This document shows positions 24,464 to 35,446 of a stretch of DNA of 64,000 nucleotides, piece by piece. The stretch is from Escherichia phage UGJNEcP1, in the sequence record OV754623. One strand, 5' to 3'. How positions within the stretch are numbered: position 1 is the stretch's first letter; each line of letters starts with the position of its first letter. Under the pieces are notes generated by a model, which searched no databases, was not told where the DNA came from, and worked only from the letters and a program-made list of their open reading frames with translations. A program made the position numbers and the translations under genes.

Positions 24464-25210
24464 TTAACCTTTAATCAGTTGGAATAATGATGCGCTAAGT
24501 GGTAAGCCACGTTTCAATTTTAATTTACCAATGAAACCAATCTTTTCAAAACGTTGCAGACCTTGGATAACTTTATCATATGTATCGAAAAGCGATTCAG
24601 CGTCAGTTAATTTAGTTTTAGTTTTCCAGTCAGAGCCTTTAAGAAGAACGTTGAGTTTAGTAAGTTCATGGCCTTCTGCTTGATGTGAGCCGTTAATGCG
24701 TGCTTTCAAAGCAACAATTCTAAGTTTAGATTCGTTAGATAAAGGTTGATTTTTCATCATGTTCGCCATATGCTTAACACGATTTTCACGTTTTGCTCGG
24801 ATTTTTAAAATAGTACCATAAACCTTTTTAATTTGGGCCCATTTCTTCTCGTCGAGATTAAGTTTCTCTACTTTACGAACAGAAGGATTAGCGATACGTC
24901 TTGCAATAGCATCACGTTTCTCAATAAGTTCTTCTAATGTTAAATCAGAACGAGCCGTGTTATATTTTTTCTTAACTGGGATAACATTACCTTTAATGTA
25001 GCCTATATCATTATTAAAACGTTCTAAGGATAATTTCTCACCTTCAACAGAGTTATTGAAAGATTCACCTGAGTAAGCGCAGACCTTTTGATCAAGAATG
25101 TTTTTAAGGTAATTAAAGTCTAAGTTAAAATCCTTAGAGCGTCTCTTCGCAGAAGCTCTGGTGTGGTCAAGACGACGATTGATTTTGTTAATTTTATTAT
25201 TTGATAACAT
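24464..25210 (-). CDS. Basic protein at the srd position (Srd-like)
   Basis: 248 aa, very basic; between dda and modA as T4 srd; identity from position only. Confidence 0.35.
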   Translation of the reverse strand: MLSNNKINKINRRLDHTRASAKRRSKDFNLDFNYLKNILDQKVCAYSGESFNNSVEGEKLSLERFNNDIGYIKGNVIPVKKKYNTARSDLTLEELIEKRDAIARRIANPSVRKVEKLNLDEKKWAQIKKVYGTILKIRAKRENRVKHMANMMKNQPLSNESKLRIVALKARINGSHQAEGHELTKLNVLLKGSDWKTKTKLTDAESLFDTYDKVIQGLQRFEKIGFIGKLKLKRGLPLSASLFQLIKG

Positions 25211-25363: not shown

Positions 25364-25972
25364 TCAGTAACTGACAATAGACAGATTCCAGATTGTATAA
25401 CGTCCATCCTGAATAATAGAATCTACACACAGTGTAGTCCCTATAGGGAGCATAAATTCACATTCGTCAGATATAAGTCTAGCATTAGACCGTCTTGTCG
25501 CTTCAGGGAAAGCTCCATTGAACTCACAAGATGGCGCAGCCAGAATCATGTTAAGCATATGTTCACGGAAGTTGAAAGCAAATGGTGCATCTTTGATGCA
25601 GAACATATTAAATGTTCCGTAAAAATTATACGAAGCAAAGTTACGTGCTACACCGAACACTGGGCTGAAGCTCATTACTCTGTCAAATTTAATAATACTA
25701 CCAATGCCTTTATCATCGAGTGTGGCCATAGTTTTCTTAGAGATTCCACGATACATTGTCTCAGGAACAGAAGACGTCCAATTTCTACGAACGATTGAAC
25801 TTAACTCCTGTTGAATACAGTCTGGCTTGTTTTCCATACACTGCCAAAGGACACTTTGTTCAATGTCGCTGAATTGACTATCAATTTCGTACTGCAATAC
25901 ATCTTGATATTCGGGGTTTTGAGCACGACGAACCATTTCTTCAATTTCACACTCGTTATACGGCATAAACAT
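25364..25972 (-). CDS. modA: ADP-ribosyltransferase ModA (R-S-E class)
   Basis: 202 aa; MYRGIS (Arg), SFSPVFG (Ser-x-Ser region) and a C-terminal Glu-rich motif; tandem with modB as in T4. Confidence 0.7.
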   Translation of the reverse strand: MFMPYNECEIEEMVRRAQNPEYQDVLQYEIDSQFSDIEQSVLWQCMENKPDCIQQELSSIVRRNWTSSVPETMYRGISKKTMATLDDKGIGSIIKFDRVMSFSPVFGVARNFASYNFYGTFNMFCIKDAPFAFNFREHMLNMILAAPSCEFNGAFPEATRRSNARLISDECEFMLPIGTTLCVDSIIQDGRYTIWNLSIVSY

Positions 25973-26029
25973 TTTGGTTTCTCCTGTGGTTGATAAAGGT
26001 ATAGTATCATCATCGGAAGAGTTTGTACA

Positions 26030-26644
26030 CTAAAAATTCAACATTTTCAAATGAATGATTTTGTATAATCGAGATAAAGGGTCATACTCTAACTCTTCGA
26101 TTTCCACAATCTCAAATCTAGAGATACTTGAAACCATGTACTCTTGTTCAGATTCAATCATATCTAGGACATCAACACGTGTTTCTTCCATAACATGCTT
26201 AGGGTTCTTTCCGGCGAGTACAATATTAACCATGTTTTGGTAGTAATCAAAAATGAATGGAGCATTCCTGAGACTAAGAATAGTGTACGTCTGATATTCC
26301 CATCTCCCAGAGAATTGACGAGCTGTACTGAAATCAGTTGTGAACGATGTTACTCGTCCAGGAGACCAATGGCATCCAACAGAAAGAAGTGAAAGACGTT
26401 CTACTTCTTCTGGAGTTACACCACGGTAAAGTTCTACTGGTACTGTAGAAGTCATATGCTTACGAACAAGATGGTCTAATTCATAGTGGAAATCCGGGTC
26501 TTCCTTAGAATCGGTGCAAGCCCAGAGAATGTTTTGTTCTTGGCGGGTGAATTTGTTATCAATAAGATTTGTTAGGTATTCACGTTCTTGAAGTTCAGAT
26601 TGACATGTCATGATAGACCTCCATTTAAAGATAAAGCCTATCAT
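26030..26644 (-). CDS. modB: ADP-ribosyltransferase ModB (R-S-E class)
   Basis: 204 aa; paralog of the preceding gene with LYRGV, SFTTDFSTA and MIESEQEYM motifs. Confidence 0.7.
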   Translation of the reverse strand: MIGFIFKWRSIMTCQSELQEREYLTNLIDNKFTRQEQNILWACTDSKEDPDFHYELDHLVRKHMTSTVPVELYRGVTPEEVERLSLLSVGCHWSPGRVTSFTTDFSTARQFSGRWEYQTYTILSLRNAPFIFDYYQNMVNIVLAGKNPKHVMEETRVDVLDMIESEQEYMVSSISRFEIVEIEELEYDPLSRLYKIIHLKMLNF

Positions 26645-30331: not shown

Positions 30332-30826
30332 TCACAACTTATTAATATTTACTTTAATTCGCTTTCTTTTCTTGGAAGGAATTTGTTCTGGACCTTTATT
30401 TACGACTGCACCTGAAGTAGTTCCTGATGCAATAGCTTGAGGACTGCCACCTGAATCACCAGCAACCATATCCTCAAATAAAGGGAGTTCTTTAAATATT
30501 TCTTTCTGTTGTTCTTCCGTAATGTTATAGCGTGAAGCTACAGCACTCCAGGCAGACATCATTGAGGCCATTCCATTAAGACCTGGAACAGTGCTCATCA
30601 TTCGCTTCATTGAACGAACTGAAGCATGAAAAGGTGTATAAGCCGCTTTCTCTTCAGGAGTGGAAGGGCGTTTAAGAACACTTCCACGTTCATCGATGAT
30701 TTTGGCTTCATACGCTTTCCATTCGGTAAAAGGTTTTTGCATTAGTCGAATAAACTTATATGCGTAAACAGAATCTATTGCAGTGTTAATAATACCCATA
30801 GGTACCTCCTGAGTATATTTAATCAA
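30332..30826 (-). CDS. Hypothetical protein (164 aa)
   Basis: ORF in the island between 41 and 61; basic C-terminus. Confidence 0.5.
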   Translation of the reverse strand: MIKYTQEVPMGIINTAIDSVYAYKFIRLMQKPFTEWKAYEAKIIDERGSVLKRPSTPEEKAAYTPFHASVRSMKRMMSTVPGLNGMASMMSAWSAVASRYNITEEQQKEIFKELPLFEDMVAGDSGGSPQAIASGTTSGAVVNKGPEQIPSKKRKRIKVNINKL

Positions 30827-31016
30827 TTACAAAGATTGCTTTGTCACCATTTATATCTGTGACTTCATATGTAGTGCCTTCATACTGTGGAATATTCCAA
30901 ATTACACCATCATTAGCTTTTACGCTAATATGGCATTGGTGTTTTGAAACAACTTCATAATCTTCAAAACTTGTAAAAACACTAATTTTAGAACCAGTGC
31001 AAATTGCAGTAGTCAT
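30819..31016 (-). CDS. Hypothetical protein (65 aa)
   Basis: Small ORF overlapping the next gene by 8 nt. Confidence 0.45.
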   Translation of the reverse strand: MTTAICTGSKISVFTSFEDYEVVSKHQCHISVKANDGVIWNIPQYEGTTYEVTDINGDKAIFVID

Positions 31017-31017
31017 T

Positions 31018-31677
31018 TTAACCTCGATTCATAAATGCATTAAATATTTGGTCATCAACAGAAATTTCTAATTCGACTTCAATTGCTTCAGCCTTTTCTT
31101 CAGGCGGTAATTCGTATCCACACACTACAATTTTTTCATCGATATCAAAATATACAGAAGCAATATGATTAATGTTATTTTCAGTTAAGTCCAAATCAAC
31201 ATCAACATCTTTTTGACCTTCACTTAAAGGATAACTAATACGGGTTATTTTATTATCTTTAACAAAGAGTCCGCCAACATACTCTGTACTACGTTTGAAG
31301 TTTACACGTTTCCGAATTGAAAGATATGATGCATCTTTACCGTGAGCTCGGCTCATAGGACATAATGAATAGCTAGAATAAGAGATGTCAAATCCTACAC
31401 CTTCAATATGAGCCAACGTATCATGATTAAACCAATTATAATCATATGCCAAATCCATTATATTGTAATATGTGAAAGGCACAGGATTAACATCATATGT
31501 TGTACCTTTAAAATCCGCCCATGCAACGATTTCGTTATCTTTAACAATTACAAAAATTACACCAATATGGTATCCATTATTATTTTCATTCGGCGTTATA
31601 TTATAACATTGTGCATTAGGAAATTTACCATATTTAAATGGCGCATTTTTGTGCATATAATAAATCATATTATTCAC
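31018..31677 (-). CDS. Hypothetical protein (219 aa)
   Basis: ORF in the island; no family recognised. Confidence 0.5.
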   Translation of the reverse strand: MNNMIYYMHKNAPFKYGKFPNAQCYNITPNENNNGYHIGVIFVIVKDNEIVAWADFKGTTYDVNPVPFTYYNIMDLAYDYNWFNHDTLAHIEGVGFDISYSSYSLCPMSRAHGKDASYLSIRKRVNFKRSTEYVGGLFVKDNKITRISYPLSEGQKDVDVDLDLTENNINHIASVYFDIDEKIVVCGYELPPEEKAEAIEVELEISVDDQIFNAFMNRG

Positions 31678-31963
31678 CTGTGATTTCGGTTACGATATCT
31701 TTGTTATCGAAATTAGGGTCACAATACAAAACATAGTTGTACTGCATGATACCGCCAGACTTAAGTTGTTCAACAACTTTATTAACCATATTAGGACGGT
31801 CTCGTTTAGTGATGTTCATGATATCAGAGAAGATTTGTTGTTCAACATCTTCTTGATTTGCAGTCATTGACCACTCACAGAGGTCTTTATCATAACCTGC
31901 CGTAACTGGAGCCGGTGCACATGATACTGCAAGTAAGATTGCTGCCAATGATAACTTTTTCAT
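31670..31963 (-). CDS. Secreted small protein with signal peptide (Sp/spackle-like)
   Basis: 97 aa; signal peptide MKKLSLAAILLAVSCAPAPVTAG, two Cys; length and character of T4 Sp; identity uncertain. Confidence 0.45.
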   Translation of the reverse strand: MKKLSLAAILLAVSCAPAPVTAGYDKDLCEWSMTANQEDVEQQIFSDIMNITKRDRPNMVNKVVEQLKSGGIMQYNYVLYCDPNFDNKDIVTEITGE

Positions 31964-31992
31964 TTTAACTCCTTAGTTGATTTGATAGGACT

Positions 31993-32022
31993 ACTATACT
32001 ATAGTCCATCTATAATGTAAAC
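31993..32022 (-). promoter_or_regulatory. Sigma70-type early promoter with inverted repeat
   Basis: GTTTAC, 18 nt, TATAGT; arms GGACTA / TAGTCC. Confidence 0.55.
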
Positions 32023-32026
32023 AAGT

Positions 32027-32275
32027 TTATTCTTTTTCGCGAATAATAATTACTTGTTGAGGCTGCTGAGCAGATTTCTTTTCGGCAACGATAGACCAAA
32101 TTAAAGTTCCAATCCAACCAACCATCGTCCAGTTAAAGAGTAAAGATACAAAGAAGATTGCTGCTGTGCTTTTTGTGCCACGAATAAGTGCGATTACCCA
32201 AGGCAACATGTAAATGATGATTGAACCAATACCTGCGATTAAAACTGCTACTGAACTAGCCACGAATAATTCCAT
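32027..32275 (-). CDS. Small inner-membrane protein (Imm / superinfection-immunity-like)
   Basis: 82 aa; two TM segments with P..IA..RG.K....NW..VGWIGTLIWS pattern typical of the Imm family. Confidence 0.5.
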   Translation of the reverse strand: MELFVASSVAVLIAGIGSIIIYMLPWVIALIRGTKSTAAIFFVSLLFNWTMVGWIGTLIWSIVAEKKSAQQPQQVIIIREKE

Positions 32276-32303
32276 GATAATTTCCTCTTGATTTGTTATG
32301 TTT

Positions 32304-32333
32304 ATAGTATCTTATTTTAACTTTGGTGTAAAC
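32304..32333 (-). promoter_or_regulatory. Sigma70-type early promoter
   Basis: GTTTAC, 18 nt, TACTAT. Confidence 0.5.
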
Positions 32334-32336
32334 CAA

Positions 32337-32705
32337 TTAATTAAATTTGTTTAAACGTTCAATACACTGGACGTAGTTATTCGCGATTTGTTTCTGGGTA
32401 GGCTCTTTACCAGTTGTTTCAACATAGCGAATGAATGCGATTTCAGTAGCCTGTAAGCAATGTTCTTTAACGCGTTGTTCCTTTGACAATGCTACAGTAT
32501 CAGAGTCACGATAACGTTGAGCATGAGCGTCAGCTTGAATCATTCGATTACCTACAGTAACCGGGTCTTCCACTTCAACTTTAGGTTGTTCATATTGTTT
32601 AACATTCGGATTGTAAATCAGTTGGCCAACGTTATTAGGGATAAAGCCATGAGCACCACATCCGGTTAATCCGAATACCATTGCTAAAGCGATTAATTTT
32701 TTCAT
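32337..32705 (-). CDS. Putative lipoprotein
   Basis: 122 aa; signal peptide plus lipobox LTGC (MKKLIALAMVFGLTGC). Confidence 0.6.
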   Translation of the reverse strand: MKKLIALAMVFGLTGCGAHGFIPNNVGQLIYNPNVKQYEQPKVEVEDPVTVGNRMIQADAHAQRYRDSDTVALSKEQRVKEHCLQATEIAFIRYVETTGKEPTQKQIANNYVQCIERLNKFN

Positions 32706-32733
32706 TTCAATTTCCTCTGTAGTTGATAGAAAG

Positions 32734-32763
32734 ATAGTAACACAGTATGTGGTGCTTGTAAAC
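32734..32763 (-). promoter_or_regulatory. Sigma70-type early promoter
   Basis: GTTTAC, 18 nt, TACTAT. Confidence 0.5.
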
Positions 32764-32765
32764 AG

Positions 32766-32978
32766 CTATTTTAAACTTTTGCGAAATTTGCGTTTTTCTT
32801 GACGAATCTGTCGTTTAGTCGGACGTACAGCAAATTTAACGAAGTCCACTTTGCCGTGTGGAAACTTTTCAGATGCTTCACAATCCATCATTAGTTCCCA
32901 TCCTTCCAAAATAAGAGCTTTCCATTGGGTAGTTGATGCAAATTCGTATGTTGATGGTTTAAACACAGTTGAATACAT
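32766..32978 (-). CDS. Small protein with basic RPTKRQ tail
   Basis: About 70 aa from MYSTVFKP; the C-terminal VRPTKRQIRQEKRK tail is shared with two small ORFs near gene 49. Confidence 0.45.
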   Translation of the reverse strand: MYSTVFKPSTYEFASTTQWKALILEGWELMMDCEASEKFPHGKVDFVKFAVRPTKRQIRQEKRKFRKSLK

Positions 32979-32979
32979 A

Positions 32980-33171
32980 TTAACCTCTGAAGTCTGCTTC
33001 AAAAACTTTCTCATCATTAACAAATGCTTTAACTAATGCATTGTTCACTTCAGCAAGTTGTACCGCAACCCACTCGATTTCTTCGCGATCACCTGATAAC
33101 ATGATATCTTTAGTGAACATCTCACCGCTTTTAAACCAACCGATAAAAGTAACTTTAGTTAATTTGCTCAT
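32980..33171 (-). CDS. Hypothetical small protein (about 63 aa)
   Basis: From MSKLTKVTFIGW; ATGA overlap with the upstream ART-like gene. Confidence 0.45.
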   Translation of the reverse strand: MSKLTKVTFIGWFKSGEMFTKDIMLSGDREEIEWVAVQLAEVNNALVKAFVNDEKVFEADFRG

Positions 33172-33485
33172 ATTTCCTCGCAAAATGCCCATTCAGCGTG
33201 ATAAACTGTAGCGCCTTTAGTATCATTCATTTGAACTACATCTACCGGAGAAATTACTCGATAGAGACGTGGTTCACCTCCATAAGAGCGTGCTGCTCGT
33301 CCTGCATAAATCTTTGCTAAACCGATATCTTCGGTAAAGAATACACGATCCAAGTTTTTCTTACGTCCTGTTTCAGACAGAACTCCTGTTTCTTCAGGAG
33401 GACAAAGCATGTTTTCGATGTTAGCTGAACTACTTGAACCGTGATAAAAAATCTTAAATTCTGCTTTACAATCGATGGTTTTCAT
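33168..33485 (-). CDS. Small protein with an ADP-ribosyltransferase-like H-Y-E signature (tentative)
   Basis: 105 aa; FYHGSSSS (H-G-S), AKIYAGRAARSYGG (Tyr-rich loop) and YHAEWAF (catalytic Glu context) in the order seen in PARP/diphtheria-toxin ARTs; short for a full ART domain. Confidence 0.35.
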   Translation of the reverse strand: MKTIDCKAEFKIFYHGSSSSANIENMLCPPEETGVLSETGRKKNLDRVFFTEDIGLAKIYAGRAARSYGGEPRLYRVISPVDVVQMNDTKGATVYHAEWAFCEEI

Positions 33486-33511
33486 TTTGTTCTCCAGTAG
33501 TTGATAGGTCT

Positions 33512-33540
33512 ATAATAACACAACTACTGGAGAAGTAAAC
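33512..33540 (-). promoter_or_regulatory. Sigma70-type early promoter with 10-bp inverted repeat
   Basis: GTTTAC, 17 nt, TATTAT; arms CCAGTAGTTG / CAACTACTGG flank -10. Confidence 0.55.
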
Positions 33541-33915
33541 TTAAAAACGTAATTTAGATATATCTGCGTTGATTTCGTTTTGGTTTGCGTCGTATGCAAT
33601 TAAACGAACCGCTTTAGATGGGTCATTCAATGCATAGAAATGATGGAACATTGCTCGAACGATATCACCATTTACGAGTTCTACCTGGATAGGAGAACCT
33701 TTTTCGAGTTGGAAATGTTCATAAGCTTTGATGGTTCGTAGATAATCAAGTTTTTGATTTCCAGCTCCAACTATTTGTACGATACGTTTGCCCATGTTTT
33801 CCATACGAGATACAATAGTTTTAGGAGCAAGAATAACGTAGGTTGCCAGCGGAGAAACTACTTCAACAGTTGTGTTTTCGGTGATTGCAGTAAAAATTGC
33901 TTGAGACATATTCAT
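33541..33915 (-). CDS. Hypothetical protein (124 aa)
   Basis: First gene of the island downstream of gene 41. Confidence 0.5.
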   Translation of the reverse strand: MNMSQAIFTAITENTTVEVVSPLATYVILAPKTIVSRMENMGKRIVQIVGAGNQKLDYLRTIKAYEHFQLEKGSPIQVELVNGDIVRAMFHHFYALNDPSKAVRLIAYDANQNEINADISKLRF

Positions 33916-33944
33916 AATGTTTTCCTCTTGGTTTGTGTAAGTGC

Positions 33945-33974
33945 ATCATATCATGCCTAGAGGAAGATGTAAAC
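33945..33974 (-). promoter_or_regulatory. Sigma70-type early promoter
   Basis: GTTTAC, 18 nt, TATGAT; arms TCCTCT / AGAGGA around -10. Confidence 0.5.
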
Positions 33975-33977
33975 CCC

Positions 33978-34000
33978 GAAAGGAGACCGAAGTCTCCTTT
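33978..34000 (+). terminator. Hairpin with T-run on the plus strand (possible antisense or bidirectional terminator) just after gene 41
   Basis: aggagaccgaagtctcct followed by TTTTTATT on the plus strand; weaker T-tract on the minus strand. Confidence 0.4.
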
Positions 34001-34003
34001 TTA

Positions 34004-35446
34004 TTAAAATTTTAACTCATTGGCTAAGCTATCTAGGTCAGCACGTGTTGCTTTGGCTTTACCTACGCGTTCCGTACGATTCACCTCTGCCTGACGCATC
34101 TGAGCACCTGCGTTTTCATTTACTGTGTTAGGTGTGTTCATGCCTTCTTGCTCAATCTCAATCCATTTCTGGTTGCCTTTACGTACACCCATCAGGAATT
34201 TATTCCACTTATTCTTATCACCATAACGTGATTTGATTTGTTTGATAAGTTGTTGTTCGGCTTGTGCAAGTTCTTCGGTTTCAATTACAGCCAACATGAA
34301 ATCTGCCGTTGCTGGTAAACCTGCTGATTCTGCGATATCACTCATGTTCATGTCTGAAGCATCCCATGCTGCACGTCCTACTTGAGCTGCAGTCCATAGA
34401 ACTGTTTCAGATTCTACTGCTAATGCACGAAGTTCTTCTGCGATAGCTTTAACTAATGTGTAGCTATTTTCAGTGTAAACTCTGATACGACAAGACCCAC
34501 AAATACCTAAGTAATCAACCATGATTACAGATGGCACAAAGTTCTTCTTAAGTTTTAACTCATTAAGCAATGCACGGAATGTATTAGCATTAGCTCCACC
34601 AGTAGGATACTGTTTAACTACTAAACGTCCTAATGTGGATTTTGAACGCCATTTTTCCATCTTGGCTTTATATTCAGCATAAGATACGTTACCATCATCG
34701 ATATCATCGAGTGATACGTCAAGCATGTTTGCATCTATACGCTTAGCACAAACTTCTTCAGCCATTTCCATGGAAATATAAAGAACATTATGTCCTGTTT
34801 GAAGATAATCTGCAGCAAGTGAACAAAGGCCTAAAGATTTACCAACGTTAACACCTGCCATTAAAACGTTTAGTGTACCAGTTTCAGCACCGCCTTTGGT
34901 GATTTTATTCAAAATGTTTAATTTGAACGGGACCTTACGTGCTTTGTTCAGATAAGAAAGCCAGCGTGCTTCGTAGTCTTCCATCCAGTCATGTCCAACA
35001 TAACTATCGAACGAAATTGAAAGTGCTTGACGCATAATATCAGGAATAGCTCCTACATCAGGCATTTTCTTGTTACGTTGTTCTGGAGGTAGTTCAGCAT
35101 TAGACTGAATCTCAATGATTTTGGACGTAGCATTATACATCGCTTTTTGCTGGACATATTTCTCAGTTTCTTTAACCAACCATTCGTGGTCTTCAGGAGT
35201 ATCAGCCAATTTTTCAATTAGGTCTGAAGTTCCTTTATATTCGGCTTCAGTTAAAGAACTGTTATCTAAAGCCACCTTTAATGCATTGATAGATGGCATT
35301 GCATTATATTCGTTAACGTGGCTCTTTATAATTTTAAAGACATTTTTTGCCGGTCCACGCTCAAAGTAATCAGAATCCATATAAGGCCAGACCTTAGAAA
35401 AATAAGCCTGGTCATATACTAGATGAGACAAAATAATTTCTACCAC
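34004..35446 (-). CDS. 41: Replicative DNA helicase gp41 (DnaB-like)
   Basis: 480 aa; Walker A GVNVGKS, DnaB-family motifs and T4 gp41 length. Confidence 0.9.
   Translation of the reverse strand: MVEIILSHLVYDQAYFSKVWPYMDSDYFERGPAKNVFKIIKSHVNEYNAMPSINALKVALDNSSLTEAEYKGTSDLIEKLADTPEDHEWLVKETEKYVQQKAMYNATSKIIEIQSNAELPPEQRNKKMPDVGAIPDIMRQALSISFDSYVGHDWMEDYEARWLSYLNKARKVPFKLNILNKITKGGAETGTLNVLMAGVNVGKSLGLCSLAADYLQTGHNVLYISMEMAEEVCAKRIDANMLDVSLDDIDDGNVSYAEYKAKMEKWRSKSTLGRLVVKQYPTGGANANTFRALLNELKLKKNFVPSVIMVDYLGICGSCRIRVYTENSYTLVKAIAEELRALAVESETVLWTAAQVGRAAWDASDMNMSDIAESAGLPATADFMLAVIETEELAQAEQQLIKQIKSRYGDKNKWNKFLMGVRKGNQKWIEIEQEGMNTPNTVNENAGAQMRQAEVNRTERVGKAKATRADLDSLANELKF

What the first reader, a model, noticed from the sequence alone, without database searches (positions are those of the whole stretch)
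32980..33485. Possible minimal ADP-ribosyltransferase-like protein translationally coupled to a small partner ORF
The 105-aa protein (33168-33485) carries, in the right order, motifs like the H-Y-E class ART catalytic core (YHGSS, KIYAG...SY, YHAEW). Its stop overlaps the start of a 63-aa ORF (ATGA), an arrangement seen in toxin/partner or enzyme/regulator pairs. It would be additional to the R-S-E class ModA/ModB encoded upstream. At 105 aa it is shorter than known ART domains, so the assignment is tentative.
Basis: inference. Interest (0 to 1): 0.55.

Follow-up and report, generated by a model that had tools for sequence, protein, structure and literature searches.

The report
Small Arr-like ADP-ribosyltransferase next to dmd
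This RB69-type phage gene really does encode a very small, very conserved protein with the fold of an NAD-using ADP-ribosyltransferase, but its "partner" is the known anti-toxin Dmd, the pairing is only local gene order, and the prediction was already published in 2022 without any experiment.

Summary
The ORF at 33168-33485 (minus strand, 105 aa) is the orthologue of RB69ORF040c. Its stop overlaps (ATGA) the start of a 63-aa ORF.

The ART reading is supported:
- A family profile hits only Arr in the PDB (E 3e-4).
- hhalign against Arr gives 95.6% probability.
- Many distant relatives pass Pfam's Arr-ms threshold.

The motif reading is only partly right. His15 and Tyr60 are invariant. The proposed Glu (E98, "YHAEW") is variable. 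The conserved acids are E38 (whole family) and E103 (T4-like branch).

The partner is Dmd, the inhibitor of the host RnlA/LsoA toxins, followed by TifA (anti-ToxN). All three sit behind a T4-type early promoter. The pairing is not obligate:
- Dmd follows the ART in only 10 of 62 viral loci.
- T4 has Dmd but no ART.
- Four-base overlaps are common in this genome.

The ART evolves more slowly than the replicative helicase. I read it as an immediate-early NAD-dependent effector with an unknown, conserved target. The ART-plus-Dmd pair was predicted computationally in 2022 (PMC9503650), so it is already known as a prediction and remains untested.

The parts
33168..33485 (-). 105-aa stand-alone minimal ART-fold protein. 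It is the orthologue of RB69ORF040c, belongs to PHROG 2110, and is a divergent Arr-like branch.
32980..33171 (-). dmd (discriminator of mRNA degradation; antitoxin against host RnlA/LsoA), 63 aa. Its start overlaps the ART stop (ATGA).
   Evidence: Pfam PF17587, E 2.4e-20, 73 bits against a cut-off of 27. PHROG 2102. Annotation in RB69 and UGJNEcP2. 55% identical to T4 Dmd.
32766..32978 (-). tifA (gp61.4; inhibitor of the ToxN endoribonuclease), 70 aa. It starts 1 base after the dmd stop and is the third gene of the unit.
   Evidence: DUF7279, E 3.5e-20. RB69 gp61.4 annotation. 57% identical to T4 gp61.4. Function from PMC9391042.
33512..33540 (-). T4-early-type sigma-70 promoter: -35 GTTTAC (33540-33535), 17-nt spacer, extended -10 TGtTATTAT (33520-33512). 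It heads the ART-dmd-tifA unit.
   Evidence: Consensus scan (9 of 12, TG present). Read directly from the sequence. GTTTAC-type promoters sit directly upstream of the ART in most T4-like lineages, after the gene 41 terminator.
33490..33534 (-). Hairpin with a 14-bp perfect stem (arms 33534-33521 and 33503-33490). The loop holds the -10 element and the 3' arm holds the Shine-Dalgarno GGAG (33495-33492) of the ART gene. I infer that it masks the ribosome-binding site in read-through transcripts but not in transcripts started at the gene's own promoter.
   Evidence: RNA fold -25 kcal/mol, z = -6.5, 0 of 200 shuffles as stable. A weaker version is present in RB69. The regulatory role is inference.

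Best explanation
The 105-aa product is a genuine stand-alone minimal ADP-ribosyltransferase-fold protein. It is a divergent, phage-restricted branch of the Arr (rifampin ART) / Tpt1-like lineage.

What is shown:
- It is the first gene of an early transcription unit (own GTTTAC-type promoter) that continues into dmd and tifA.
- It keeps the NAD-site signature shared with Arr: His15-Gly-Ser on strand 1, Glu38-x-Gly-Arg41, Phe49/Thr51 on strand 2, and Tyr60 on the following helix.
- In the T4-like branch it also has an invariant Glu103 on the last strand.

What I infer:
- It binds NAD+ and transfers ADP-ribose to a conserved target at the very start of infection, as a host-takeover or counter-defence effector.
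- This is the same job its relatives appear to do when embedded in injected 'polyvalent' virion proteins.
- It works independently of Dmd. The ART-dmd adjacency is gene order specific to Mosigvirus, Dhakavirus and close relatives, not a toxin-antitoxin pair.

The acceptor is unknown. The Arr/Tpt1-type fold, and fusions of relatives to NUDIX and 2H domains, favour a phosphate, RNA-end or small-molecule acceptor over a fast-evolving host protein.
For: Fold:
- AF2 pLDDT 84.7, pTM 0.77.
- Foldseek top hits are Arr 9iaf and 2hw2 (prob 1.00, TMq 0.58-0.59), then Tpt1.
- The third BFVD hit is a siphovirus protein named rifampin ADP-ribosyl transferase.

Homology:
- Profile A2 hits only Arr in the PDB (2hw2/9iaf E 3e-4; Arr-2 E 0.01). 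It aligns H15 to H19, E38xGR41 to E40-A-G-R43, and F49 to Y49.
- hhalign against an Arr alignment gives 95.6%, E 1.1e-8, 71 columns.
- 10 of 32 multidomain relatives scanned exceed the Pfam Arr-ms gathering score.

Conservation:
- H15 and G16 are invariant; Y60 is present in 102 of 103, E38 in 100 of 103 and F49 in 100 of 103 representatives. E103 is present in 37 of 37 T4-like sequences.
- ART dN is 0.087 against 0.253 for the gp41 helicase versus Dhakavirus; dN/dS is about 0.08-0.09.
- Amino-acid identity is 90% for the ART against 68% for gp41.

Early expression:
- Promoter, hairpin, and a promoter conserved across lineages.

Effector context:
- The roughly 95-aa domain sits inside proteins of up to 3924 aa together with tape-measure, portal, CHAP, ART-PolyVal, ddrB-ParB, GNAT and Toprim domains.
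- NUDIX or 2H lies immediately C-terminal in P0162, P0205 and P0166.

Independence from Dmd:
- Dmd is downstream in 10 of 62 IMG/VR loci, and at least 8 unrelated ORF families fill that slot elsewhere.
- The whole T4 genome has dmd but no ART (best E 0.07).
- The distributions of Dmd (798 records) and the ART (609 records) overlap only partly.
- T4 dmd is essential only in rnlA+ hosts.
Against: - No biochemical datum exists for any member of this family.
- The protein itself scores nothing in Pfam, NCBIfam or PADLOC.
- Arr's essential Asp84 has no conserved counterpart; it falls at M86/N87/D88, just outside the aligned region.
- Arr's Tyr49 is Phe here.
- Glu103 is hydrophobic in most of the wider family: only 18 of 103 have E or D. 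The catalytic acid is therefore not identified, and a non-catalytic NAD/ADPr-binding role cannot be excluded.
- I could not inspect model coordinates, so the positions of residues around the NAD pocket rest on alignment only.
- The Glu103-Glu104 codons (GAGGAA) also serve as the ribosome-binding site of the downstream gene in many loci, which adds a nucleotide-level constraint.
- The hairpin's regulatory role and the 'effector' role are inferences.
- Aravind and colleagues report a second, independent Dmd-ART (Mod-like) adjacency in Klebsiella phages. I did not examine it, and it argues for some functional link.
Confidence: 0.6

Rival explanations
1. The ART and Dmd form a phage-borne type II toxin-antitoxin pair. 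The ART is a toxin (perhaps acting on RNA), and Dmd, besides blocking host RnlA/LsoA, neutralises it. This is the published computational proposal and is.
For: - There is a direct ATGA overlap here, and abutting TAAATG junctions in Dhakavirus-type loci.
- PMC9503650 proposes exactly this for Escherichia, Shigella and Salmonella phages, and reports a second ART family (Mod-like) next to Dmd in Klebsiella phages.
- Relatives of the ART occur as modules of large conflict proteins.
Against: - Dmd follows the ART in only 10 of 62 viral loci.
- The slot is filled by a membrane peptide, a Cys-rich mini-ORF, a lipoprotein-like ORF, gp30.6 and others, often with the same ATGA overlap, or by nothing.
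- Close ART orthologues (85%, 78% identical) sit after gene 41 with no dmd within 3 kb.
- T4 has dmd but no ART anywhere.
- T4 dmd is dispensable in an rnlA knockout.
- Dmd was not detected among the main organism groups listed for Klebsiella, Acinetobacter or Aeromonas phages, which carry the ART.
- The ART evolves about three times more slowly than Dmd, unlike co-evolving toxin-antitoxin partners.
Confidence: 0.12
2. It is a catalytically dead ART fold that only binds NAD+, ADP-ribose or an ADPr-derived immune signal. It would act as a sponge or decoy, or mimic and compete with a host ART such as DarT.
For: - There is no conserved acid at the position of Arr Asp84, and Tyr49 is replaced by Phe.
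- The protein is very small.
- It lies in a cluster of stoichiometric inhibitors: Dmd, TifA, and AdfA at 31021-31668.
- Strong conservation fits binding of an invariant small ligand.
Against: - The His-Gly-Ser/Thr, Glu38-x-Gly-Arg41 and Tyr60 signatures shared with the active enzyme Arr are nearly invariant.
- Glu103 is invariant in all 37 T4-like sequences, across different codon contexts.
- Relatives fused directly to NUDIX or 2H domains suggest that a product is made and then processed.
Confidence: 0.15
3. It is a true Arr-type small-molecule resistance enzyme that ADP-ribosylates a rifamycin-like antibiotic for the benefit of the infected cell.
For: Arr is the closest sequence relative and a top structural relative. 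Relatives pass the Pfam Arr-ms threshold.
Against: - The alignment stops at residue 84 and the protein ends at residue 105, so the C-terminal part of the roughly 140-aa Arr is missing.
- Of the Arr triad H19/Y49/D84, only the His is kept.
- A virulent phage with a cycle of tens of minutes gains little from antibiotic resistance; this point is inference.
- The family is almost absent from cellular genomes: 5 loci in 185,579 species, of which at least one, and probably three, are phage contigs.
Confidence: 0.04
4. It is a chance ORF with chance motifs and not a functional gene.
For: None beyond the short length and the absence of a Pfam hit.
Against: - It is found in 609 phage records.
- 149 clusters with E <= 0.01 were found, and all 120 listed are at least 62% identical.
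- 222 distant representatives were found.
- dN/dS is about 0.08.
- The predicted fold is confident.
- The gene has its own promoter and Shine-Dalgarno sequence.
Confidence: 0.01

Closest known systems
Arr, NAD+-rifampin ADP-ribosyltransferase (Pfam PF12120; PDB 2HW2, 9IAF, 9IBA)
   Same: - It is the only PDB family hit by sequence profile (E 3e-4) and by hhalign (95.6%).
- Shared features: a small single-domain ART, HG[ST] on strand 1, the E-x-G-R loop, and the hhhT strand 2.
- Relatives of the window protein pass the Arr-ms gathering score.
   Different: - It is 105 aa against about 140 aa, and the C-terminal third is not alignable.
- Arr's Tyr49 is Phe here, and Asp84 has no conserved counterpart.
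- The window protein itself is below Pfam detection.
- It is phage-restricted, expressed early, and has no link to rifamycins.
Tpt1/KptA RNA 2'-phosphotransferase (NAD-binding C-lobe)
   Same: - It is a His-type ART.
- Relatives of the window protein are fused to 2H or NUDIX domains. PMC9503650 associates both of these domains with KptA: 2H acts on its ADPr>P product, and one viral KptA is fused to Nudix.
   Different: - There is no N-terminal RNA-binding lobe, so the two-lobe architecture that carries Tpt1's catalytic Arg-His-Arg-Arg tetrad (from my own knowledge) is absent.
- No sequence-level match was found at E <= 10.
Predicted 'p0068-family ART + Dmd' phage toxin-antitoxin pair (PMC9503650, Viruses 2022)
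   Same: The description fits this locus: a predicted His-type ART directly upstream of Dmd in Escherichia, Shigella and Salmonella T-even-like phages.
   Different: - The identity of 'p0068' with RB69ORF040c is inferred from that description. No accession could be checked: supplements are not held and the 2015 classification paper is not held.
- That paper places the family in the H-Y-[EDQ] clade and reads Dmd as its antitoxin.
- My tests put it nearest to Arr/Tpt1 and do not support an obligate pair.
AcrIF11, a phage anti-CRISPR ADP-ribosyltransferase (PDB 6KYF)
   Different: No sequence-profile relationship was detected. AcrIF11 is narrowly distributed, whereas this family spans T4-like phages of many host genera and evolves slowly.
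T4 Alt / ModA / ModB (R-S-E clade ARTs)
   Same: They are phage-encoded NAD-dependent modifiers deployed at the start of T-even infection. ModA/ModB-like genes are in the same window.
   Different: - They belong to a different ART clade: Arg rather than His on strand 1.
- They are about 200-680 aa.
- No sequence similarity was found.
- T4 has these three but lacks this ART.
ART-PolyVal (PF18760) domains of polyvalent proteins (PMC5512222)
   Same: Relatives of the window protein occur in the same giant phage proteins, often directly next to an ART-PolyVal domain: P0130, P0139, P0162, P0185, P0209.
   Different: It is a distinct family: the two domains co-occur as separate modules. The window protein is free-standing and expressed from an early promoter rather than packaged as part of a virion protein.

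Membership tests
ADP-ribosyltransferase superfamily (fold level) | ART core fold with the NAD-binding strand-1 motif | tested here: met
   [not shown]
Arr (PF12120, rifampin ART) | Scores above the Pfam gathering threshold | tested here: not met
   The window protein has no Pfam hit at E <= 1. Ten more distant multidomain relatives do pass, with 26.8-35.2 bits against a cut-off of 25.
Arr (PF12120, rifampin ART) | Detectable homology to Arr by profile methods | tested here: met
   hmmsearch of profile A2 against the PDB: 2hw2/9iaf E 3e-4, 9iba E 0.01, and no other family. hhalign A2 against Arr alignment A4: 95.6%, E 1.1e-8, residues 8-84.
Arr (PF12120, rifampin ART) | Essential residues His19, Tyr49 and Asp84 (Baysarowich 2008, as cited in PMC13246000) | tested here: not met
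   His is kept (H15). Tyr49 aligns with Phe49, which is F in 100 of 103 sequences. Asp84 lies just past the aligned block, opposite M86/N87/D88, none of which is invariant.
Arr (PF12120, rifampin ART) | Full-length domain of about 140 aa, including the C-terminal part | tested here: not met
   The protein ends at residue 105. The PDB Arr chains are 143-151 aa. The alignments stop at residue 84.
Arr (PF12120, rifampin ART) | ADP-ribosylation of rifamycins | not testable with these tools
   This needs an enzyme assay or an MIC test.
His15 is invariant and Tyr60 is present in 102 of 103 sequences. Glu103 is invariant in the T4-like branch, but only 18 of 103 sequences in the wider family have E or D there.
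Tpt1/KptA RNA 2'-phosphotransferase | Two-lobed enzyme with an N-terminal RNA-binding lobe (the site of the catalytic Arg-His-Arg-Arg tetrad, from my own knowledge) | tested here: not met
   [not shown]
R-S-E clade ARTs (Alt/ModA/ModB, cholera-toxin type) | Arg on strand 1, Ser-Thr-Ser, Glu-x-Glu | tested here: not met
   Strand 1 carries His-Gly-Ser. T4 ModA and ModB match other window genes (25382-26554), not this one.
Type II toxin-antitoxin pair (ART toxin + Dmd antitoxin) | The two genes co-occur as a conserved unit | tested here: not met
   Dmd is adjacent in 10 of 62 loci. The ART occurs without dmd in Mosugukvirus, Kanagawavirus, and Klebsiella, Aeromonas, Acinetobacter and Vibrio phages. 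T4 has dmd without the ART. Their database distributions overlap only partly.
Type II toxin-antitoxin pair (ART toxin + Dmd antitoxin) | The toxin is toxic, and the antitoxin binds and neutralises it | not testable with these tools
   This needs expression and rescue experiments and pull-downs. Co-folding of two chains was not available.
Dmd family (the partner ORF) | Scores above the Pfam PF17587 gathering threshold over its full length | tested here: met
   73.1 bits against a cut-off of 27, covering residues 4-63 and profile positions 3-60 of 60. PHROG 2102, E 3.7e-33.
Polyvalent-protein effector domains (PMC5512222) | The domain is embedded in large multidomain phage or conjugative-element proteins alongside unrelated enzymatic modules | tested here: met
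   This is met for the family: 46 of 103 representative domains lie in proteins of 250 aa or more, up to 3924 aa. Partner domains include tape-measure, portal, CHAP, ART-PolyVal, NUDIX, 2H, GNAT, Toprim, ddrB-ParB and LPD23. The window protein itself is free-standing.

The most novel reading that the evidence does not exclude
The ART-dmd-tifA unit may be a three-part anti-RNase-toxin operon. In this reading the mini-ART is the smallest active ADP-ribosyltransferase known, and it works like the NAD lobe of Tpt1. It would ADP-ribosylate phosphate groups at RNA ends (2'- or 5'-phosphates left by host endoribonuclease toxins), or the RNA or toxin itself. That would chemically repair, cap or protect phage transcripts, while Dmd and TifA block RnlA/LsoA and ToxN directly.

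The extreme conservation would then reflect an invariant nucleic-acid substrate. The fusions of relatives to 2H and NUDIX domains would reflect processing of the ADPr-phosphate product.
Probability: 0.12. Interest if true: 0.8.

Novelty: already known. Interest (0 to 1): 0.42.

Why it matters
If the protein is active, it would be about the smallest ADP-ribosyltransferase domain known. It would also be a fourth ART type in T-even-like phages, next to Alt, ModA and ModB.

It is carried by hundreds of Mosigvirus, Dhakavirus, Klebsiella, Acinetobacter, Aeromonas and Vibrio phages, many of them phage-therapy candidates. It is conserved better than their replicative helicase, yet it has no known target.

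It sits at the head of an operon whose other two genes are proven counter-defence factors, so finding its substrate could reveal a new point of attack on the host or on host immunity.

The practical message of this check is narrower:
- The fold prediction is sound.
- The prediction is not new (PMC9503650).
- The attractive toxin-antitoxin reading should not be taken for granted.

Tried and rejected
Led nowhere:
- Pfam, NCBIfam and PADLOC on the protein itself gave no hits.
- A PDB sequence search with the single protein and with the close-orthologue profile A1 gave no ART hit. Only the broad profile A2 worked.
- The afdb50 fold library was not installed.
- The look-up of encoding contigs for P0125 gave only a 546-bp contig.
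- The genome-contig scan gave 5 loci. One is demonstrably a T4-like phage contig filed under a bacterial name, and two others probably are (contig length and ART identity). No bacterial neighbourhood information came from this.
- The literature search for 'p0068' was swamped by accession numbers.
- The supplements of PMC9503650, and the papers PMC2290778 and PMC6126934, are not held.
- No paper on RB69ORF040c was found: the one 'ORF040c' hit concerns Aeh1 and RB49 ORFs. Further searches found no experimental work.

Considered and rejected:
- Chance ORF: rejected on conservation and dN/dS.
- E98 as the catalytic Glu: it is variable.
- Membership of Tpt1 or of bona fide Arr: the architecture and key residues are not met.
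- ATGA overlap as evidence of partnership: overlaps are common, and the same overlap occurs with unrelated ORFs.
- High ART identity being only recent horizontal transfer: dS is saturated (about 1.8) against PM2 while dN stays at 0.15.
- E103 conservation being only a ribosome-binding-site constraint: E103 persists in loci with no downstream gene and in other codon contexts.
Full report
**What is there.** The window is a Mosigvirus (RB69-like) genome segment. The stretch 32700-34000 is 100% identical to Escherichia phage UGJNEcP2 and 98.2% identical to RB69. All genes around the finding are on the minus strand.

The 105-aa ORF runs 33485->33168. It is preceded by GGAG six bases upstream of its ATG. 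It ends ...GAG GAA ATA TGA, and that TGA shares its first two bases with the ATG of a 63-aa ORF at 33171->32980.

The gene is RB69ORF040c (NP_861730.1) and is annotated 'hypothetical'. The only points to add are that the strand is minus and that the ModA/ModB-like genes (25382-26554) lie downstream in the direction of transcription.

**The neighbours.**
- The 63-aa ORF is Dmd (Pfam PF17587, 73 bits against a cut-off of 27; PHROG 2102). Dmd is the T-even inhibitor of the host RnlA/LsoA RNase toxins.
- The next ORF (32978->32766) is gp61.4/TifA (DUF7279; 57% identical to T4). TifA is the ToxN inhibitor (PMC9391042).
- Further on come imm.1, imm, sp and gp61.2/AdfA (31021-31668; 66% identical to T4 gp61.2).
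- Upstream lie a Mosigvirus-specific 124-aa ORF of unknown function (33541-33915) and the gene 41 helicase.

The ART therefore heads a run of known counter-defence genes.

**Is it an ART?** The protein alone gives nothing in Pfam, NCBIfam or PADLOC, or in a PDB sequence search. It belongs to PHROG 2110, function unknown.

Evidence from structure:
- An AlphaFold2 model built on 37 orthologues is confident (pLDDT 84.7, pTM 0.77).
- Foldseek puts Arr first (probability 1.00, TMq 0.58-0.59), then Tpt1.
- In the viral structure set, the first match outside the close orthologues is a siphovirus protein named rifampin ADP-ribosyl transferase.

Evidence from sequence:
- A profile search of 1.84 billion representatives found 222 relatives.
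- A profile built from them hits only Arr in the whole PDB (E 3e-4; Arr-2 E 0.01).
- hhalign against an alignment of bona fide Arr proteins gives 95.6% probability and E 1.1e-8 over residues 8-84.
- Ten of 32 multidomain relatives pass Pfam's own Arr-ms threshold.

The protein is an ART-fold domain, and its nearest characterised kin are Arr and the NAD lobe of Tpt1.

**Which residues matter.**
- Among T4-like orthologues, 25 positions are invariant, including H15, G16, E38, G40, R41, K43, N44, F49, T51, Y60, R63 and E103.
- Across 103 diverse representatives, H15 and G16 are 100% conserved. Y60 is present in 102 of 103, E38 in 100 of 103, F49 in 100 of 103 and R41 in 96%.
- The alignment with Arr pairs H15 with Arr His19, E38-x-G-R41 with Arr E40-A-G-R43, and F49 with Arr Tyr49.
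- Arr's third essential residue, Asp84 (cited in PMC13246000), falls just beyond the alignable block, opposite M86/N87/D88. None of these is invariant.
- E103 is invariant in all 37 T4-like sequences, but only 18 of 103 sequences in the wider family have E or D there.

I could not inspect coordinates, so the catalytic acid is unresolved; E38 and E103 are the candidates. This is the main weakness of the claim that the protein is an active enzyme.

**Expression.** Directly upstream lies a T4-early-type promoter: GTTTAC at 33540-33535, a 17-nt spacer, and TGtTATTAT ending at 33512. The same GTTTAC-type promoter, placed after the gene 41 terminator, precedes the ART in most T4-like lineages examined.

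In this phage the promoter is embedded in a 14-bp perfect hairpin (33534-33490). The hairpin folds at -25 kcal/mol with z = -6.5. Its 3' arm contains the Shine-Dalgarno sequence. A transcript started about 7 nt after the -10 element would lack the 5' arm. I infer that the ribosome-binding site is masked in read-through RNA and free in the gene's own early transcript. This has not been shown.

**Is Dmd its partner?** Four tests say the pairing is not obligate.
1. Of 62 viral-contig loci carrying the ART, Dmd is the downstream gene in only 10. All 10 are gene-41-adjacent Tevenvirinae with an ART at least 86% identical to this one. Elsewhere the slot holds a 55-60-aa membrane peptide (again with an ATGA overlap), a 41-46-aa Cys-rich ORF, a lipoprotein-like ORF, gp30.6, a 124-aa ORF, a 38-aa ORF, or nothing.
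2. A six-frame profile search of the complete T4 genome finds no ART (best E 0.07). The same search on the window gives 1.7e-41. T4 has dmd directly after gene 41.
3. Dmd is detected in 798 phage records, mostly Tequatrovirus-type coliphages. The ART is detected in 609 records, including 116 Klebsiella, 68 Acinetobacter and 62 Aeromonas phages. The two sets overlap only in Mosigvirus/Dhakavirus-like phages.
4. In T4, dmd is essential only when the host has rnlA (HIDEN-SEQ preprint).

In addition, 4-base overlaps are routine here: 4 of 27 junctions in the RB69 stretch have one, and 11 of 27 overlap or nearly abut. The overlap is real, but it is not evidence of a functional pair.

Against this, Aravind and colleagues report a second ART family (Mod-like) next to Dmd in some Klebsiella phages. 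I did not examine that, so I keep the toxin-antitoxin reading as a rival at about 0.12.

**Clues to function.**
- The ART is unusually conserved. Against a Dhakavirus it is 90% identical, compared with 68% for the gp41 helicase and 47-67% for Dmd.
- Its dN is 0.087, against 0.253 for gp41 and 0.287 for Dmd. Against PM2, dS is saturated at about 1.8 while dN is 0.15. This argues for an invariant substrate rather than a fast-evolving host defence protein.
- The family is essentially viral. A scan of 185,579 species genomes gave 5 loci. One is demonstrably a T4-like phage contig filed under a bacterial name: the 'Flagellimonas marina' contig encodes a neighbour 97% identical to one in a Klebsiella phage.
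- In other phages the same roughly 95-aa domain is a module of very large proteins. Partner domains include tape-measure, portal, CHAP, ART-PolyVal, ddrB-ParB, GNAT, Toprim and LPD23. These are the 'polyvalent proteins' proposed to be delivered with the DNA (PMC5512222).
- In three of them the next domain is NUDIX or a 2H phosphoesterase (P0162, P0205, P0166). PMC9503650 associates both domains with KptA: 2H acts on its ADPr>P product, and one viral KptA is fused to Nudix.
- In T4-like phages the free-standing gene behind an early promoter would give the same timing as an injected protein.

My best explanation, at confidence 0.6, is an NAD-dependent, immediate-early effector of the Arr/Tpt1-like ART lineage that acts independently of Dmd. 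The acceptor is unknown. I lean towards a phosphate, RNA-end or small-molecule acceptor, and that lean is inference.

**Comparison with what is known.**
- The protein works like, and is homologous to, Arr. It fails Arr membership on three tested features: the Pfam threshold for this protein, two of the three essential residues, and the missing C-terminal part.
- It resembles only the NAD lobe of Tpt1.
- It is not an R-S-E enzyme like Alt, ModA or ModB.
- AcrIF11 is the nearest precedent for a small phage ART used in counter-defence; that resemblance is structural only.

**Novelty.** The idea is not new. [quoted passage not shown] A few GenBank records already name orthologues 'ADP-ribosyl transferase': Pantoea phage Phynn, Klebsiella phage KLB31 and Vibrio phage 501E54-1. 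I equate 'p0068' with this family from the description only, because no accession could be checked. I found no experimental work on any member.

**Verdict.**
- The ART interpretation is supported at the level of fold and homology.
- The motif details are partly wrong.
- The partner is identified as Dmd, and an obligate partnership is not supported.
- The finding is already known as a computational prediction.
- Interest is moderate (0.42): an ultra-small, ultra-conserved, widely distributed phage ART with no known substrate is a good experimental target, but it is not a surprise to specialists.

Noticed in passing
window 33490-33540 (-): A 14-bp perfect hairpin (-25 kcal/mol, z -6.5) encloses the -10 element of a T4-early-type promoter. 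Its 3' arm carries the Shine-Dalgarno sequence of the ART gene. This looks like the classic T4 device in which read-through transcripts are translationally silent and only transcripts from the gene's own promoter are translated.
   Followed up: partly
window 33168-33485 compared with 34004-35446 (-): The accessory ART is more conserved than the essential gp41 helicase. Against Dhakavirus it is 90% versus 68% identical, with dN 0.087 versus 0.253. This is the opposite of what is usual for conflict genes.
   Followed up: yes
window 33168-33176 (-); loci L003-L039: The last sense codons of the ART (GAG GAA, Glu103-Glu104) double as the ribosome-binding site (GAGG) of whatever gene follows. GAGGAA(N)T(N)TGA/TAA-ATG recurs at the junction in most T4-like loci, regardless of the downstream gene.
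   Followed up: partly
window 30800-33000 (-): A run of counter-defence and superinfection genes lies directly downstream of the ART: dmd, tifA (61.4), imm.1, imm, sp and adfA (gp61.2, 31021-31668; 66% identical to T4). It forms an anti-defence island between gene 41 and gene 61. In T4, imm and imm.1 sit elsewhere.
   Followed up: partly
window 33541-33915 (-): RB69ORF041c is a 124-aa ORF with its own early-type promoter (33973-33945). It belongs to PHROG 10668 (unknown function) and has no Pfam hit. It was found only in Mosigvirus loci among the 80 loci compared.
   Followed up: no
L077 (NZ_JBHSCL010000010.1, 'Flagellimonas marina', 178-kb contig); also L078 and L076: L077, a contig filed in the bacterial species genome collection, is a T4-like phage contig: a gene next to its ART is 97% identical at protein level to one in Klebsiella phage Fraggle_ER53. 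L078 (167-kb contig) and L076 (Selenomonadaceae MAG) carry ARTs 64% and 71% identical to this one and are probably phage contigs too. This looks like contamination or mis-binning.
   Followed up: partly
L008 1818-1958, L009 1816-1956, L007 2023-2163, L026-L028: A 41-46-aa acidic, Cys-rich mini-ORF (CxxC...CxxC, possibly a zinc ribbon) follows either the ART or Dmd in several Tevenvirinae genera. One GenBank record notes HHpred similarity to the ClpX zinc-binding region.
   Followed up: no
L003 1595-2464; L004 1680-2441: In Klebsiella and Aeromonas T4-like phages the ART lies in a different genome region (near rnlB, hoc and the 30.x genes). There it is preceded by a conserved 250-290-aa protein of unknown function (PHROGs 7439 and 7204, which are related to each other). 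An RNA ligase 2 gene lies about 2 kb downstream in the Klebsiella type.
   Followed up: no
P0130, P0139, P0162, P0185, P0209 (metagenomic proteins): Arr-like and ART-PolyVal domains recur side by side in the same giant phage proteins, so two different ARTs sit in one polypeptide. In P0162 and P0205 a NUDIX domain follows the Arr-like domain directly, and in P0166 a 2H/Acb1-like domain does.
   Followed up: partly
window 25382-26554 (-): Two adjacent ModA/ModB-like genes are present (30-38% identical to T4 ModA and ModB), next to an srd homologue (24467-25207).
   Followed up: no
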